From Octopus vulgaris (lineage: Eukaryota), in NCBI GenBank assembly GCA_951406725.2, contig OX597819.1, positions 86,366,001 through 86,430,000 of the forward strand: 64,000 nt of DNA, read 5' to 3'. Made by a program: the position numbers and the translations under genes. Under the pieces are notes generated by a model that did no database searches, had not been told where the DNA came from, and saw only the letters and a list, made by a program, of their open reading frames with translations. Below, piece by piece: positions 1 to 30,270 of this stretch (position 1 is its first letter; each line of letters starts with the position of its first letter).

Positions 1-2590
1 ATTACAGGGTAAATGTTTTTTAAATTTTCTCCTGGTTTACTGAATTAACTTTTATTTGCGGTTGAAGCTTTGGCTGTTATTTCTAGTGGGTGAATGGCCT
101 ATTATGGCCGTTCCTTTATTGTTGATGTTGAACTTAAAAATGGTCTATGACTATTTTAATTTTTTCCTACTAGGCCGCTGGTGGCAAAAGAATTCTACAA
201 AATTTTTTTTGCCACCCTATATTGATTAATTATGAATTTTCTGGTTAATTCCGTAATGGAATCGACGGCTTATATTTATTTGCTGCCGATAAATTTGGCG
301 CGAGTGCGACGATTTGAAAATTTTAGGTCAGATATAAACTTGGCAACGTCGGAAATGCCTCGTGAAAATATCTGTTCCGTCTTGGGCTATTTCTTACTGA
401 AGAATCTGAGGGCCTGTGGAAGATTAGCTTGATTTAATTTAATCAGGTTAGTTTACCATTAATCAGCAGATGAAACGGTATATCGTATAAGAAATTACAG
501 GGTAAATGTTTTTTAAATTTTCTCCTGGTTTACTGAATTAACTTTTATTTGCGGTTGAAGCTTTGGCTGTTATTTCTAGTGGGTGAATGGCCTATTATGG
601 CCGTTCCTTTATTGTTGATGTTGAACTTAAAAATGGTCTATGACTATTTTAATTTTTTCCTACTAGGCCGCTGGTGGCAAAAGAATTCTACAAAATTTTT
701 TTTGCCACCCTATATTGATTAATTATGAATTTTCTGGTTAATTCCGTAATGGAATCGACGGCTTATATTTATTTGCTGCCGATAAATTTGGCGCGAGTGC
801 GACGATTTGAAAATTTTAGGTCAGATATAAACTTGGCAACGTCGGAAATGCCTCGTGAAAATATCTGTTCCGTCTTGGGATATTTCTTACTGAAGAATCT
901 GAGGGCCTGTGGAAGATTAGCTTGATTTAATTTAATCAGGTTAGTTTACCATTAATCAGCAGATGAAACGGTATATCGTATAAGAAATTACAGGGTAAAT
1001 GTTTTTTAAATTTTCTCCTGGTTTACTGAATTAACTTTTATTTGCGGTTGAAGCTTTGGCTGTTATTTCTAGTGGGTGAATGGCCTATTATGGCCGTTCC
1101 TTTATTGTTGATGTTGAACTTAAAAATGGTCTATGACTATTTTAATTTTTTCCTACTAGGCCGCTGGTGGCAAAAGAATTCTACAAAATTTTTTTTGCCA
1201 CCCTATATTGATTAATTATGAATTTTCTGGTTAATTCCGTAATGGAATCGACGGCTTATATTTATTTGCTGCCGATAAATTTGGCGCGAGTGCGACGATT
1301 TGAAAATTTTAGGTCAGATATAAACTTGGCAACGTCGGAAATGCCTCGTGAAAATATCTGTTCCGTCTTGGGATATTTCTTACTGAAGAATCTGAGGGCC
1401 TGTGGAAGATTAGCTTGATTTAATTTAATCAGGTTAGTTTACCATTAATCAGCAGATGAAACGGTATATCGTATAAGAAATTACAGGGTAAATGTTTTTT
1501 AAATTTTCTCCTGGTTTACTGAATTAACTTTTATTTGCGGTTGAAGCTTTGGCTGTTATTTCTAGTGGGTGAATGGCCTATTATGGCCGTTCCTTTATTG
1601 TTGATGTTGAACTTAAAAATGGTCTATGACTATTTTAATTTTTTCCTACTAGGCCGCTGGTGGCAAAAGAATTCTACAAAATTTTTTTTGCCACCCTATA
1701 TTGATTAATTATGAATTTTCTGGTTAATTCCGTAATGGAATCGACGGCTTATATTTATTTGCTGCCGATAAATTTGGCGCGAGTGCGACGATTTGAAAAT
1801 TTTAGGTCAGATATAAACTTGGCAACGTCGGAAATGCCTCGTGAAAATATCTGTTCCGTCTTGGGCTATTTCTTACTGAAGAATCTGAGGGCCTGTGGAA
1901 GATTAGCTTGATTTAATTTAATCAGGTTAGTTTACCATTAATCAGCAGATGAAACGGTATATCGTATAAGAAATGACAGGGTAAATGTTTTTTAAATTTT
2001 CTCCTGGTTTACTGAATTAACTTTTATTTGCGGTTGAAGCTTTGGCTGTTATTTCTAGTGGGTGAATGGCCTATTATGGCCGTTCCTTTATTGTTGATGT
2101 TGAACTTAAAAATGGTCTATGACTATTTTAATTTTTTCCTACTAGGCCGCTGGTGGCAAAAGAATTCTACAAAATTTTTTTTGCCACCCTATATTGATTA
2201 ATTATGAATTTTCTGGTTAATTCCGTAATGGAATCGACGGCTTATATTTATTTGCTGCCGATAAATTTGGCGCGAGTGCGACGATTTGAAAATTTTAGGT
2301 CAGATATAAACTTGGCAACGTCGGAAATGCCTCGTGAAAATATCTGTTCCGTCTTGGGCTATTTCTTACTGAAGAATCTGAGGGCCTGTGGAAGATTAGC
2401 TTGATTTAATTTAATCAGGTTAGTTTACCATTAATCAGCAGATGAAACGGTATATCGTATAAGAAATGACAGGGTAAATGTTTTTTTAATTTTCTCCTGG
2501 TTTACTGAATTAACTTTTATTTGCGGTTGAAGCTTTGGCTGTTATTTCTAGTGGGTGAATGGCCTATTATGGCCGTTCCTTTATTGTTGA
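1..2590 (+). repeat. Tandem array of 493-bp units (~5.25 copies, cut off by the window start); retrozyme-like, one hammerhead ribozyme per full unit
   Basis: The same 66-aa spurious ORF recurs at 232, 725, 1218, 1711 and 2204 (period 493). Units differ at only ~3 positions. The array ends in (TA)n. Confidence 0.97.
389..495 (+). ncRNA. Type I hammerhead ribozyme, copy 1 (further copies 882-988, 1375-1481, 1868-1974, 2361-2467)
   Basis: Stem I ATTTCTTA(389-396)/TAAGAAAT(488-495); core CTGAAGA(397-403); stem II ATCTG(404-408)/CAGAT(467-471) extended by a long hairpin; GAAA(472-475); near-palindromic stem III CGGTATATCG; GUA triplet, predicted cleavage after 487. Confidence 0.88.
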
Positions 2591-2610
2591 TATATATATA
2601 TATATATATT

Positions 2611-2823
2611 AGTTTCAAATTTTTGCACAAACCCAGCCATTTCTGGGTAGGTGCTAAGTAGATTACATCGACCCCAGTTCTCAATGTGTACTTACTTTAT
2701 CGATCCTGGAACGATGAAAGGCAAAGCCCACACCGACGGAATTTGAACTCAGAGCGTAAAGACGGACGAAATGACATCAATCATTTTGCCCGGCGTGCTA
2801 ACAAGTTTGCCAGCTCGCCGCCT
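2611..2823 (-). mobile_element. tRNA-derived SINE with Meta-domain-like core
   Basis: Minus strand ggcggcgagctggc... head, ...ctgagttcaaattcc B-box, gcctttcatc...tcgataaag core; multiple copies in the window. Confidence 0.8.
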
Positions 2824-3796
2824 CAGTATTATATATATTACAATATAGTTACAGTAGAAATAAAGTGCATAAGATATGTACAGTGTAACAATTACATTTG
2901 AGGTATACACGTAATAACTGAATTAGATATTGTTCACTTTGTTGTGTTTTGCTATGCACGTGAACCCCTAGTCCCTGATGCAACAACGATTGGGAATCGT
3001 TATTCTACATGGCTGCTTCATCTGCTGAAAATAGCAAATCATCTTAAATTAAAGATATTCTGGAGAAATAGTTTACAAGAGAGTCACGACTCGAACGCTT
3101 TTTATAGCTTTCTCCAGTTTGTGACGCTGCGGAGCGAACAACTACAGTCAACCAATTTGCTTTCAAGCCAATGAAGGAAAACTTTGTCTGGAGTCACTTG
3201 AACGATTAGAAATATGCTAGATTTCTTTAAAATCACACTACCCTGCCTTATATGTTACAGTAGGAGACACCAGATCATGCAGTAATCTATGCGTGTGTGC
3301 ATGTGTTTGTGTGTGTGTGTGTGTGCGTGTGTGTGTGTGTGTGTGATTATTTATGTACATATGAATATCTGGAAAGAAGTTGTGAAAGCGTAAAAAATAT
3401 ATAAACCAGGTGAAAGTTGCCCGGGAACAGTGTTTACCTAGTTTTCTCAATGAACGACTCAACTTTAAATGATTCAGACTGCTCAGAACTATTGATAAGT
3501 TTTAATCTTCCAACTAAATCTAGACCGATGAAGATAGCATCCATCCTTCCAGCATCTCACGTGTTTGTTTATTCACTCGCTAAAAACAAACATTGAAAAT
3601 TTCAAAATTAAAGCATAAAAGATGCATTCCGCGCCGAACGAAAAAAATGGATAACTGGATATCTTTACTTCGATACATACATGTGTGTGCATGTATATGA
3701 GTGTTAAATACGTATACATATATGTGTCTGTGTTTGTGTGTGTGTGTCTGAATGTGTATACACATACACGTACACACACACACACACAAACACACA

Positions 3797-3856
<60 letters not shown>

Positions 3857-3889
3857 AAAGTAACTGAAAGAAAATGGAGCATTTCCGAC

Positions 3890-4380
3890 ATCTGCTTCTC
3901 TTTGCCTTCAGCTACGGTCTCAATTCGATCTCAAAGCTTCTCTGCTTTATCTCGAACCTGGTCAGTTCAATGAGGGTCGACTGAATCAACTCATCCACGA
4001 GTATCTGTTCTAAGACACTAGGAAATTTTCACCTAGCAGACGAGATGCTCTCTTCATATCGTCGTCGCACGTCACCTCCACTTAAGGGCAATCCACCTGA
4101 AAGTACTTGACCAGCGATATGGCGTGCTTCTTGGATAGGTGCTTCGCCCCTGCGTCGTTAATCTGGCCCCAAAAATGTTATTCAAGAACTCACTTGGAAA
4201 TTCTCTTGCAGTCATCATATTCTCCTGATATAGCTCCTTCAGATTATTGCGTTTACAGTCGATCTCCATCGGTCGGCTTGGTATTTCATTCAACAGCGAG
4301 GTGGCACTGAAAATGTAGCTTAAAATATTCTTTGAATTAAGACCCAGTGATTTCATCCGTCAAGGAATCTACTCCTTGAA
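3890..4380 (+). pseudogene. Degraded mariner (DD34D-type) transposase fragment
   Basis: ORF 4107-4310 contains SSYSPDIAPSDY, matching the mariner HPPYSPDLAPSDY motif. Boundaries approximate. Confidence 0.7.
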
Positions 4381-4506
4381 TGTGCTGGCCTTGTGCCAAG
4401 ATTTGAAACCATAATTACAGTTCTTATATATTGCTCACACTGTAATGTATAGGAGATAAACTGAATGTTTGTTTGTGTATGTACGTTTATATGTATATAG
4501 GCTGAG

Positions 4507-4540
<34 letters not shown>

Positions 4541-15051: not shown

Positions 15052-15105
<54 letters not shown>

Positions 15106-15267
15106 TTATCGCCATACTAATATGGCATTCTTATAAAAATAAGAATAAAGCTAACCGCTTATTAGCTCCATGAGGCCATCGCCTTAAGTTAGCTATTTGA
15201 TACACAAACTGTATCCATATAACCTTTGAACAAGGGAGGTCAGTCGCTCCACACTACTTGGCCGGCA

Positions 15268-15309
15268 GCTACAGACGCGTTTCGGGGTATTGCCCCTTTT
15301 CAATGCAGC
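15268..15309 (-). ncRNA. Minimal type I hammerhead ribozyme with U3-A8 core
   Basis: Minus: GCTGCA TTGAAAA GGGG caata CCCC GAAA CGCG TC TGTAGC. Confidence 0.85.
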
Positions 15310-15630
15310 GTAGCCAAACCAGTAGGTGTCGCTTCCGACAATCTCTGTTCAAAGGTTTTATTTACCTAGCTTCGGTGGAATACATCCACTTGTTTTCAAT
15401 AATAGAAATATTAAAATTACTAAGTCTCTCTAAAAGAGAACAACGGCAGCGTTCCCGGAAAATATTAGTTATCGCCATACTAATATGGCATTCTTATAAA
15501 AATAAGAATAAAGCTGACCGCTTATTAGCTCCATGAGGCCATCGCCTTAAGTTAGCTATTTGATACACAAACTGTATCCATATAACCTTTGAACAAGGGA
15601 GGTCAGTCGCTCCACACTACTTGGCCGGCA

Positions 15631-15672
15631 GCTACAGACGCGTTTCGGGGTATTGCCCCTTTTCAATGCAGC
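15631..15672 (-). ncRNA. Minimal type I hammerhead ribozyme with U3-A8 core (second copy)
   Basis: Identical to 15268-15309, 363 nt away. Confidence 0.85.
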
Positions 15673-16583
15673 GTAGCCAAACCAGTAGGTGTCGCTTCCG
15701 ACAATCTCTGTTCAAAGGTTTTATTTGTGTGTATGTGTGTGTATGTGTGCAATGATGACAAGGGTGTGTATTGGCTATTAGCAGGCCAGTATGTAAGAAT
15801 TAAGGAGTGGTGTTTTGGAGTCCAATCACAGGTCAAAAACAAAAAGGTATGTGTGTGCGTGTATGTATATGTATCGTGTGTGTGTTTTGTTTGTAGTGTG
15901 TGTGTGTGTATGTGTGTGTTTGTGCGTGTATGCGTAGAGTTTGGGTGTGTGGCGAGTAACTGTGTTTAACTTAGTGTATGTGTGCGTGTGTGCTTGTACA
16001 TGCGTGTGTGTGTATATATATATATGTATGTATAATTGTGTGCGTGTATGTTTGTGTGTGCGTGTATGTATAGTTGTGTGCCGTGTGTATGGGATGTATG
16101 TGTGAGTTCATTTGTGTGTGTATGTATGTGCGTGTAGTTGTGTGTGCGTGTATGTGTGCGTTTGTATGTGTGTGTGTGTAAGCATATATGGATGTATATG
16201 CGTGTATCCGTGGGGTTGTGAGTTTTGCGTGTGTGCGTGCGTATGTGTGCACATGTTTTGTGTGCGTATGTATGTGTGTGTCTGTGCTTATATGTGTGTA
16301 CGTATGTGTATGTGTGCGTGCGCGTGTAGGTATATATTGTGTGTATGTATATATGTCGGTGTGTATGTGAATTTGTGTGTGTTTGTACGTGTGTATGTGT
16401 GTGTGCGTGTATTGTAAATATATGTAAATGTGTGTGTGCGTGTGTGTGTGCGTGCGTGGGAGTGAATGTATGTATATATGTGCGTGTGTGTACAAATGTA
16501 AGGGTTTATATGTGTGTTTATATGTTTATATGTGTGTATATGCATGTATGCAGGCACACACTTTATAATTGAAAGATTGATGG

Positions 16584-28861: not shown

Positions 28862-29244
28862 GAACATCTTGTAAATAAGCGTCGCGTGTGTCTGTTATCT
28901 ACAGAAAATAAAGGAATTCGCAAAGGCAAGAAGGCTGTAAGGATAGCTTAGGGAAACGGGTGAATACCCCTTTAGAAGACGTGGGGCGGGAGCAAAGGCT
29001 CCGCAGAGAATCGAGCCCTGCAACTCTCAAAATCCGGCTGAGTGCTCTGGATCATTAAGCTAACAGATTTCGTCTAAGTATCGCTAAATAATAGCTTTTA
29101 GAGTGTGAGAACAATTTGTAAAGAAACTTATAACCGCTGCGCGTGTATATATCTACACAATATATATATATATATATATATATTTGTAAAAAATGAAGTT
29201 CGAAAATGCTGCTGTATTATACAATTTTTAATTTTTATATATAC

Positions 29245-29288
29245 ATTATAACATGTTTCAGTTCCTGAAATGAACCTTATCAAAAAAA
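29245..29288 (-). ncRNA. Degenerate hammerhead motif with U3-A8 core
   Basis: Minus: TTGATAA GGTTC atttcag GAACT GAAA CATG TT; stem I poorly paired. Confidence 0.5.
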
Positions 29289-29662
29289 GTTATATATAAA
29301 AAGAGACAGCTCATGCCGTCAAACACAAGAAATTCATTTATAATACACAACGGAGTCAGACATCTTAGAGTTCATGTATAGTTGATATATAGTTCATGTA
29401 TAGTTGATATATAGTTTGAAGTATATTTCAAAGTGTTCGATGCAGTGGCCCACGGTGGCGATATGTATTCAATACAAAAAGCAGATCAAAGTGGTGGAAA
29501 GCGGTCAATACAGAAGATTGATGTTTCCGAAAGAGCGAGGAATTCATTTTTACCTTAAGCAATTGTGATGACCCATGGTGGAAGTTCGCTGGGTGGTTCT
29601 AGTGATTTTTTGTGAAATGCTTGGTTTTATAATGCCTGTTAGGTGGTCAATCTAGCGTAGCG

Positions 29663-29995
29663 TGACGTCATCAATGTTTTGACCAATCGTTTCGTTAGGT
29701 GGCTTTAATCAAGTGGAACGGGACGTCATCATTATTTTGACCAATCGCTGCATTATAACTCCTTCTTGTTTGTTTCCTGTCTTGACCAGTCGCTTCGTTA
29801 GTCAAGCATAGCGGGATGTCATCCAGATTCTGCCCAATCACGACTTATAGCTACATTAGATCTGTCCCCTGTCTGTACTTGTTAGGTGACTATTCAAGCA
29901 GAAAAGGACGTCATCAATATTCTGACTAATGACTGTCCCCTGTTTGTATCCTGTCCATTCTAGCAGAGCTAGACGTCATCAACTTGTTGACCAAT
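29663..29995. promoter_or_regulatory. Five copies of a GACGTCA-N12-CCAAT module (CRE/ATF-like + NF-Y-like)
   Basis: Modules start at 29664, 29722, 29815, 29907 and 29972, each with a 12-nt spacer. Function is inferred only. Confidence 0.4.
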
Positions 29996-30270
29996 CAGAA
30001 TCGGGTCTGACCCATAGCTGTATCGTATGTATCAGGGTCAGATTTGCACGAAAGAATTTTTTTCCCTTTTTTACTAAGGCATATTTCCGTCAGAGTGAGT
30101 GTCTGTTTGAAGTAGCGGCCGTGGTGAAATTTGGTTCTCCTTTTCGGAGGACTTAACTTTTGTTTTAGTATTCCTGGCCCAGGGTGTTTAAACTTGGTCT
30201 AAATTTTTTTATGAAATATAGTTCTTTATATAGTTCTTTATTATATATATATATATTTATACACACATAT

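What the first reader, a model, noticed from the sequence alone, without database searches (positions are those of the whole stretch)
15101..15726. Second, unrelated ribozyme dimer (363-nt unit) with compensatory U3-A8 core
Seen: a 1.7-mer of a 363-bp unit with two identical minus-strand minimal HHRs, GCUGCA-UUGAAAA-GGGG-CAAUA-CCCC-GAAA-CGCG-UC/UGUAGC. The usual C3-G8 tertiary pair is replaced by U3-A8, a double change that preserves pairing and argues for selection on catalysis. Each HHR is also enclosed by a 12-bp stem (aacctttgaaca/tgttcaaaggtt). Known: minimal HHRs with palindromic stem III can act as dimers, which tandem copies allow. Inference: a partial dimer is the expected footprint of reverse transcription around a 363-nt circle.
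Basis: partly seen in the sequence, partly recalled or inferred. Interest (0 to 1): 0.82.

Follow-up and report, generated by a model that had tools for sequence, protein, structure and literature searches.

The report
Ribozyme repeat hitchhiking on Penelope retrotransposon
This is one young copy of a large family of ~360-base tandem repeats carrying a predicted self-cleaving hammerhead ribozyme, and its insertion ends carry the signature of Penelope-like retrotransposons, so a matching intact Penelope element in the same genome is the likely helper and the pair would let one test how such animal 'retrozymes' spread.

Summary
Observation confirmed: a 1.72-mer of a 363-bp unit on the minus strand, two identical type I hammerheads with U3-A8. 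It is a canonical (not minimal) hammerhead and one of about 2,000 U3-A8 motifs of a multi-subfamily non-LTR retrozyme family. Helices I and II covary, and the helix III loop takes all four palindromic dinucleotides (95 of 100), supporting dimer action. The new point is the insertion anatomy: 73 of 74 arms end in (TA)n, at two fixed sites 175 or 238 nt past the cleavage site, and 30 of 32 inverted two-armed insertions use one of each, the 'tail' described as unique to Penelope-like elements (PLEs). A young Neptune/Nematis-type PLE with intact 781-aa ORFs targets (TA)n, has two ends and carries the same rare U3-A8 core. U3-A8 is known and family-wide; it switched back to C3-G8 in one clade, beside a mismatched C3·A8 subfamily that still spread. 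Reverse transcription ran through the cleavage site seamlessly (109 of 111), so the template was continuous; circle versus uncleaved multimer is not resolved. Cleavage and expression are untested.

The parts
15099..15726 (-). Retrozyme insertion, 628 nt = 1.72 units; 5' end truncated at unit position 274 (base of the ribozyme rod), 3' end at site A (position 175), single arm
15274..15636 (-). 363-nt monomer from one predicted cleavage site to the next (predicted circle)
   Evidence: circular fold z -6.3
15627..15678 (-). Type I hammerhead 1 (U3 15666, A8 15661, C17 15637) with helix I, UAC/U loop, outer stem, helix II GGGG/CCCC with CAAUA loop, palindromic ACGCGU helix III
15264..15315 (-). 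Type I hammerhead 2, identical (U3 15303, C17 15274)
15221..15357 (-). Long rod enclosing hammerhead 2, closed by the 12-bp stem (15346-15357 with 15221-15232); its 286/47 pair is U-A here and C-G in 11 of 42 insertions, with 1 single change
15584..15720 (-). Same rod around hammerhead 1
15111..15126 (-). Small hairpin just before site A, conserved across subfamilies
15399..15461 (-). 63-nt 'tail' between site A (unit position 175) and site B (238); internal in this copy, terminal in other copies
15055..15102 (.). (TA)24 target microsatellite at the 3' junction
29177..30229 (-). 5'-truncated 3' end of the candidate helper PLE (99.3% to an intact copy), ending in (TA)n, with a U3-A8 hammerhead-like core at 29250-29283

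Best explanation
It is a young insertion of a non-coding, non-autonomous retroelement family (a non-LTR retrozyme) whose copies end at two fixed sites in (TA)n repeats, and it is most likely copied into the genome by the reverse transcriptase/GIY-YIG protein of a Neptune-type Penelope-like element from a continuous, likely circular, RNA. Steps: (1) a tandem copy is transcribed (not shown); (2) two hammerheads pair through their palindromic helix III and cut after GUC, releasing a 363-nt unit whose ends are held together by the long rod and are likely ligated by a host RtcB-type ligase (inferred from covariation and from PMC7229834; not shown); cleavage is likely incomplete; (3) the PLE protein nicks (TA)n on both strands and starts reverse transcription internally, one strand at site A (+175) and the other at site B (+238) of the same RNA (the A+B end pattern is shown; the enzyme is inferred from PMC11167929); (4) RT runs through the cleavage site without a break for 0.1 to 5.5 units (shown), often stopping at the base of the rod, and the two cDNAs join head to head to give inverted arms; the window copy is a single arm from site A.
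For: Family: 180 matches from 40 scored of 1287 candidates, mostly 98-100% identical; 805 + 1149 U3-A8 motifs (controls 0 and 6); homologous units of 339-364 nt across subfamilies. Ribozyme: on 45 distinct natural motifs 94% of cells pair (shuffles 75%, slid controls 29-52%), 14 of 17 pairs have double changes; helix III loop self-complementary in 95 of the first 100 listed (TA 31, GC 30, CG 25, AT 9, counted by eye). PLE signature: in 42 insertions, 74 arms: 36 end at 167-178, 37 at 232-238, 1 elsewhere; 73 of 74 are followed by (AT)3; 30 of 32 two-armed insertions are A+B, 0 A+A, 1 B+B (30 of 31, p 3e-8); other subfamilies also end at about +175-180 and +220-235. Tails and inverted 5'-truncated arms are PLE hallmarks (PMC8557442) and two adjacent internal RT starts are reported as unique to PLEs (PMC11167929). 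Both arms come from one haplotype: 7 of 255 diagnostic-site mismatches within insertions against 3222 of 8573 between. Continuous template: 109 of 111 crossings of the cleavage site seamless; 3 of 74 5' ends within 362..3, about 1 expected. Circle-compatible: 12 variants fixed in every covering unit of one insertion and absent from the other 41, 3 of them in both arms. Helper: 16 of 150 scored GIY-YIG hits lie in 781-aa frames, RT + CX4CX2C linker + C-terminal GIY-YIG, 11 ORFs 95.4-100% identical, (TA)n ends at two sites 38 nt apart with one two-armed A+B copy, 1304 U3-A8 cores with ACAUGU helix III (control 0).
Against: No cleavage or expression data: no run on record as RNA holds it. A C3·A8 subfamily (24 identical motifs at 17 loci, with a tandem trimer and inverted pairs) was mobile, and PMC11167929 found hammerhead cleavage dispensable for PLE insertion in vitro. 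Circle not proven: L161, L162, L164, L166 carry variants in consecutive units as expected from post-insertion duplication, and L162 and L165 show both arms copying a template with distinguishable units, i.e. an uncleaved multimer; 'private' variants are private only among 42 of several hundred insertions. No nucleotide similarity between retrozyme and candidate PLE beyond the core (best E 0.019), tail lengths differ (63 or ~46 versus 38 nt), the PLE's own helix I is weak, and other PLE families exist in this genome, so the helper's identity is circumstantial. The 42 insertions were chosen as best hits (22) or for having several ribozymes (20).
Confidence: 0.65

Rival explanations
1. Same PLE machinery, but the templates are linear uncleaved read-through multimers; arrays grow afterwards by DNA-level duplication, and circles, if made, are a by-product.
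For: Mobile C3·A8 subfamily; unit-specific variants shared by both arms in L162 and L165 and block-duplication patterns in L161, L164, L166; PMC11167929: unprocessed RNA is the dominant insertion substrate in vitro.
Against: Strong conservation of the catalytic core with covarying helices over subfamilies only 66-94% alike; 5' truncation should shorten arrays each generation, yet young arms reach 4.35 and 5.5 units; variants fixed in all units of both arms (L159, L161, L165).
Confidence: 0.27
2. Mobilised by another reverse transcriptase (a LINE, or a different PLE family than the 781-aa one).
For: No sequence similarity to the candidate PLE's 3' end; other PLE families are present; LINE-type zinc-binding fragments occur near some copies.
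Against: Against a LINE: two fixed internal ends used one per arm, inverted arms both bearing 3' ends, no poly(A). Against another PLE: the 781-aa family is the one with intact near-identical ORFs among the scored hits and shares target and core. The figure given is for a non-PLE enzyme; a different PLE family as helper I put at about 0.3 within the best explanation.
Confidence: 0.05
3. A DNA-level satellite or duplication with a chance hammerhead-like sequence and no RNA intermediate.
For: No RNA holder on record (blank, not evidence); some arrays show DNA-level duplication.
Against: Dispersed short arrays on most chromosomes, fixed 3' and variable 5' ends, RNA-structure covariation, 5' ends clustered at the rod's base (23 of 74 in 29 nt).
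Confidence: 0.02

Closest known systems
Metazoan non-LTR retrozymes (coral, mussel, axolotl; PMC7229834)
   Same: Tandem units within the 150-450 bp range, one canonical type I hammerhead each, GC under 50%, no ORF, LTR, PBS or PPT, highly paired predicted circle, co-existing PLEs.
   Different: U3-A8 core throughout; (TA)n targeting with no discernible target-site duplication; fixed A/B ends and inverted arms, which the passages I read do not describe; circles and cleavage shown there, not here.
Vertebrate retrozymes as PLE derivatives (bioRxiv 10.64898/2026.07.22.740005)
   Same: Conclusion that retrozymes are non-autonomous PLE passengers.
   Different: That work rests on co-occurrence and pLTR homology in 31 vertebrates, 3 insects and a coral and uses C3-G8-type descriptors as far as I read; here the evidence is the insertion signature, and there is no pLTR homology beyond the ribozyme core.
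EN+ Penelope-like elements, Neptune/Nematis type, and non-autonomous Chlamys such as MRC1 (PMC8557442); anole Poseidon mechanism (PMC11167929)
   Same: Partial tandems, inverted 5'-truncated arm, tail at one end, microsatellite targets, hammerhead upstream of two RT start sites.
   Different: No protein; tail 45-63 nt instead of 30-40 bp; unit is only ~360 nt with a canonical tertiary-stabilised hammerhead.
U3-A8 hammerheads (PMC3088659; Schistosoma Cercyon PLE minimal hammerheads, PMC4209133)
   Same: Same core covariation, in a PLE context in Schistosoma.
   Different: Here it dominates a canonical retrozyme family and its candidate helper, and all of U3-A8, C3·A8 and C3-G8 occur in related mobile subfamilies.

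Membership tests
Type I hammerhead ribozyme (canonical metazoan) | Core (C/U)3 U4 G5 A6 N7 (G/A)8 A9 ... G12 A13 A14 A15.1-U16.1 H17 | tested here: met
   U3-A8 accepted as natural covariant
Type I hammerhead ribozyme (canonical metazoan) | Helix I 6 bp, helix II 4 bp, helix III 1-2 bp with palindromic loop, supported by covariation | tested here: met
Type I hammerhead ribozyme (canonical metazoan) | Self-cleavage at the GUC site | not testable with these tools
   needs a transcription assay
   helix III and a conserved UAC/U loop with outer stem are present
Rfam hammerhead families | Score at the gathering cut-off | tested here: not met
   0 hits at gathering, none at E<=10
Non-LTR retrozyme | Short tandem units each with a type I hammerhead, dispersed in many copies, non-coding, no LTR features | tested here: met
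Non-LTR retrozyme | Expressed as linear and circular monomer RNA | tested here: inconclusive
   only assembled contigs of runs guessed to be RNA hold it
PLE-mobilised element | Two adjacent 3' ends (tail), inverted 5'-truncated arm, partial tandems, microsatellite target | tested here: met
PLE-mobilised element | 3' sequence similarity to an autonomous PLE | tested here: not met
   only the hammerhead core type is shared; one PLE family tested in depth
Neptune/Nematis-type PLE (candidate helper) | RT followed by CX2-5CxxC linker and C-terminal GIY-YIG | tested here: met
   (RVT_1 28.9 bits, just under the 29.6 cut-off; GIY-YIG over cut-off)
Neptune/Nematis-type PLE (candidate helper) | Placement in an RT tree with reference clades | not tested
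   no reference PLE proteins were fetched

The most novel reading that the evidence does not exclude
A dimeric PLE enzyme primes both strands of a cut (TA)n target on one circular ribozyme RNA at two fixed internal sites and rolls round it, with L165 (perfect period-2 alternation shared by both arms) the footprint of a dimeric circle; the retrozyme and its helper share a rare U3-A8 core that hides both from standard ribozyme searches, and the family records a natural U3-A8 to C3-G8 switch through a mobile mismatch intermediate.
Probability: 0.35. Interest if true: 0.75.

Novelty: new variant of a known kind. Interest (0 to 1): 0.55.

Why it matters
Which enzyme mobilises animal retrozymes, and whether a circle is the template, is open: the papers read propose PLEs from co-occurrence and homology. 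Here the insertions themselves carry the PLE-specific two-start signature (30 of 32), and an intact, young, target-matched PLE is available in the same genome, so the question can be put directly in an existing in vitro PLE assay. The family also offers natural tests of hammerhead dimer action (four palindromic loops) and of the 3-8 pair (three states in related mobile subfamilies), and shows that C3-G8 descriptors and Rfam miss thousands of motifs in such genomes.

Tried and rejected
Rfam: nothing at gathering or E<=10. Expression: no RNA holder listed; contigs of 4 runs guessed to be RNA and 4 of unknown kind cover the unit, also in other organisms, but contigs show no ends, strand or circle, and the 'goes back 363' joint also stands in the large DNA-like runs; not used as evidence. 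Linear cleaved monomers as templates: rejected, no pile-up of 5' ends at the cleavage site (3 of 74, one of them a mis-call in a palindromic junction). Core conservation among 110 young units (0 changes at positions 3-8) is not a test, since loci were picked by that motif or by identity. Link to the 493-bp array: none. Heterogeneous C3-G8 motifs as helper ends: 14 such loci are not homologous to the unit and 140 of 201 nearby ORF fragments gave no RT or GIY-YIG hit. Shared cis-sequence between retrozyme and PLE 3' ends: a hairpin-plus-TATTAT likeness by eye was not supported by blastn or alignment. Single origin of either core state: rejected (AU p 0.0005 and 0.008). Earlier findings of the scan: none returned. 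Kinetics of U3-A8: no readable paper found.

Full report
OBSERVATION. Window 15099-15363 repeats at +363 with one mismatch; the two minus-strand hammerheads are identical, with U3 at 15666 and 15303 and the predicted cut after 15637 and 15274, and they are the only motifs my descriptor found in the window. Each sits at the tip of a ~135-nt rod closed by the 12-bp stem (z -6.4). The 3' junction is a (TA)24 run. Rfam reports nothing. The 493-bp array at 1-2591 is unrelated. The genome is 2.8 Gb in 227 contigs; its repeats look like an octopus's to me, which is recalled and not tested.

THE RIBOZYME. By the definition in PMC4209133 (passages) this is a canonical metazoan type I hammerhead: helix I 6 bp, helix II 4 bp, helix III 1-2 bp with a palindromic loop. 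The genome holds 805 matches to the window's motif with positions 3 and 8 free (first 100 listed all U3/A8; control 0) and 1149 further U3-A8 motifs with another N7 (control 6). They belong to homologous units of 339-364 nt, 66-94% alike between subfamilies. On 45 distinct motifs the structure I wrote from the window sequence is paired in 94% of cells (75% shuffled, 29-52% slid) with double changes in 14 of 17 pairs, including an outer stem beyond a UAC/U loop; the rows were found by patterns that fix the core letters, so the core columns are not independent. The two-base helix III loop, left free in the pattern, is self-complementary in 95 of the first 100 listed and takes all four possible forms (counted by eye): the best evidence here for dimer action. 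In the 12-bp stem the 286/47 pair is changed on both sides in 11 of 42 insertions, on one side in 1.

U3-A8. It is a known natural covariant (PMC3088659, passages; Schistosoma PLEs). Here 475 C3-G8 motifs also occur (control 4), some in sister subfamilies, others unrelated. With a tighter pattern, mismatched cores number 51 (C3·A8) and 12 (U3·G8). The U3·G8 ones are scattered, but 24 of the C3·A8 are identical, at 17 loci, with a tandem trimer and inverted pairs: a mismatch lineage that moved. In a tree of 47 rows (104 of 127 regions kept, then dereplicated; the 23 dropped are listed) with positions 3 and 8 masked, C3·A8 and one C3-G8 group form a branch (94/89) inside a U3-A8 group (100/100), a second C3-G8 lineage lies apart, and single origins of either state are rejected (AU p 0.0005, 0.008). 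The tree is unrooted; a return to C3-G8 is the parsimonious reading, and the order of C3·A8 and C3-G8 is unresolved. So pairing at 3-8 is favoured over time, but the double change is old, family-wide and not strictly required for mobility.

HOW IT MOVES. I mapped 42 insertions (22 from the best hits, 20 picked for several ribozymes). Of 74 arms, 36 end at unit position 167-178, 37 at 232-238 and 1 elsewhere; 73 are followed by (AT)3. Thirty-two insertions have two inverted arms, and 30 use one end of each kind (0 A+A, 1 B+B, 1 irregular). Other subfamilies, the C3·A8 one included, end at the homologous places. PMC8557442 (passages) lists partial tandems, an inverted 5'-truncated copy and a tail at one end as PLE features; PMC11167929 (parts 1-2 of 4) shows that a PLE protein cuts and extends both strands of AT-rich DNA, starts at two adjacent internal RNA sites, and calls the tail unique to PLEs. 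The two arms of an insertion share a haplotype (7 of 255 versus 3222 of 8573 mismatches), as expected if one particle primes both strands. 5' ends cluster at positions 34-62 (23 of 74), the 3' base of the rod, by RT stalling or local palindromic annealing (inference); the window copy stops at the rod's 5' base.

CIRCLE OR NOT. RT crossed the cleavage site cleanly 109 of 111 times and 5' ends do not pile up there, so templates were continuous. Twelve variants are fixed in all units of one insertion and absent from the other 41, three of them in both arms, and arms reach 5.5 units: this fits copying round a monomer circle. But L165 (alternating 72C/T in both arms) and L162 need templates with distinguishable units, i.e. 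uncleaved multimers, circular or linear, and L161, L164 and L166 look like post-insertion duplications. No run on record as RNA holds the unit, so expression is open.

THE HELPER. A GIY-YIG search gave 6136 candidates; 16 of the 150 scored lie in 781-aa open frames. [quoted passage not shown] It ends in (TA)n at two sites 38 nt apart, one copy has an A arm and a B arm, and its terminal repeat carries a U3-A8 core with a palindromic ACAUGU helix III in 1304 places (control 0), though with a weak helix I. A fragment lies in this window at 29177-30229. Against: no similarity to the retrozyme beyond the core, a different tail length, and other PLE families in the genome.

WHAT IS KNOWN. Non-LTR retrozymes and their circles are described, with PLEs proposed as helpers (PMC7229834, passages; supplement unreadable, and it may list cephalopods). 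A 2026 preprint argues PLE origin from co-occurrence and pLTR homology in vertebrates (parts 1-3 of 5; supplements not seen). Searches for octopus or cephalopod retrozymes or hammerheads, and for retrozyme with Neptune, returned no description of this family or of A/B tails in retrozymes (listings only); the library lacks most subscription papers.

VERDICT. Real and functional-looking; a new variant of a known kind. Its value is the direct PLE insertion signature, a testable helper, and natural variation at the dimer helix and the 3-8 pair. Interest 0.55.

Noticed in passing
window 1-2591 (+): 493-bp array, 5.3 copies 99% alike, cut by the window edge and ending directly in (AT)n like a PLE-type insertion; unrelated to this family and to the candidate PLE; no hammerhead with helices in my scan.
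   Followed up: partly
window 29177-30229 (-): 5'-truncated copy of the young 781-aa PLE, ending at its site A in (TA)n, with the U3-A8 core.
   Followed up: yes
L091-L095, L098-L100 (e.g. G000:C4:80857199-80857949): Subfamily with a mismatched C3·A8 core that nonetheless made tandem and inverted insertions with normal A/B ends.
   Followed up: partly
L165 (G000:C16:8588600-8591600): Period-2 alternation of one variant along a four-unit arm, in register with the other arm: possible dimeric circle, or a two-unit duplication.
   Followed up: partly
L070-L074, L079, L080, L083-L089: Hundreds of heterogeneous single C3-G8 hammerhead-like motifs with an ACAUGU helix III, perhaps remnants of older PLE ends; no RT or endonuclease fragment found nearby.
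   Followed up: partly
L139:857-2257 and 2176-4521: The candidate PLE has a 466-aa ORF1 overlapping the RT frame, suggesting a programmed frameshift.
   Followed up: no
L129, L143: Retrozyme copies lie next to PLE copies in the same TA-rich stretches, as expected from a shared target.
   Followed up: no
L052/L053 and L054/L055 (G000:C1:67.41 and 67.47 Mb): The same array with the same flanks occurs twice in opposite orientation about 61 kb apart: a segmental inverted duplication or an assembly duplicate.
   Followed up: no
runs X6, X11, X15, X17, X18: The unit occurs at 90-99% identity in contigs of several other coded organisms, so the family is shared among relatives.
   Followed up: partly
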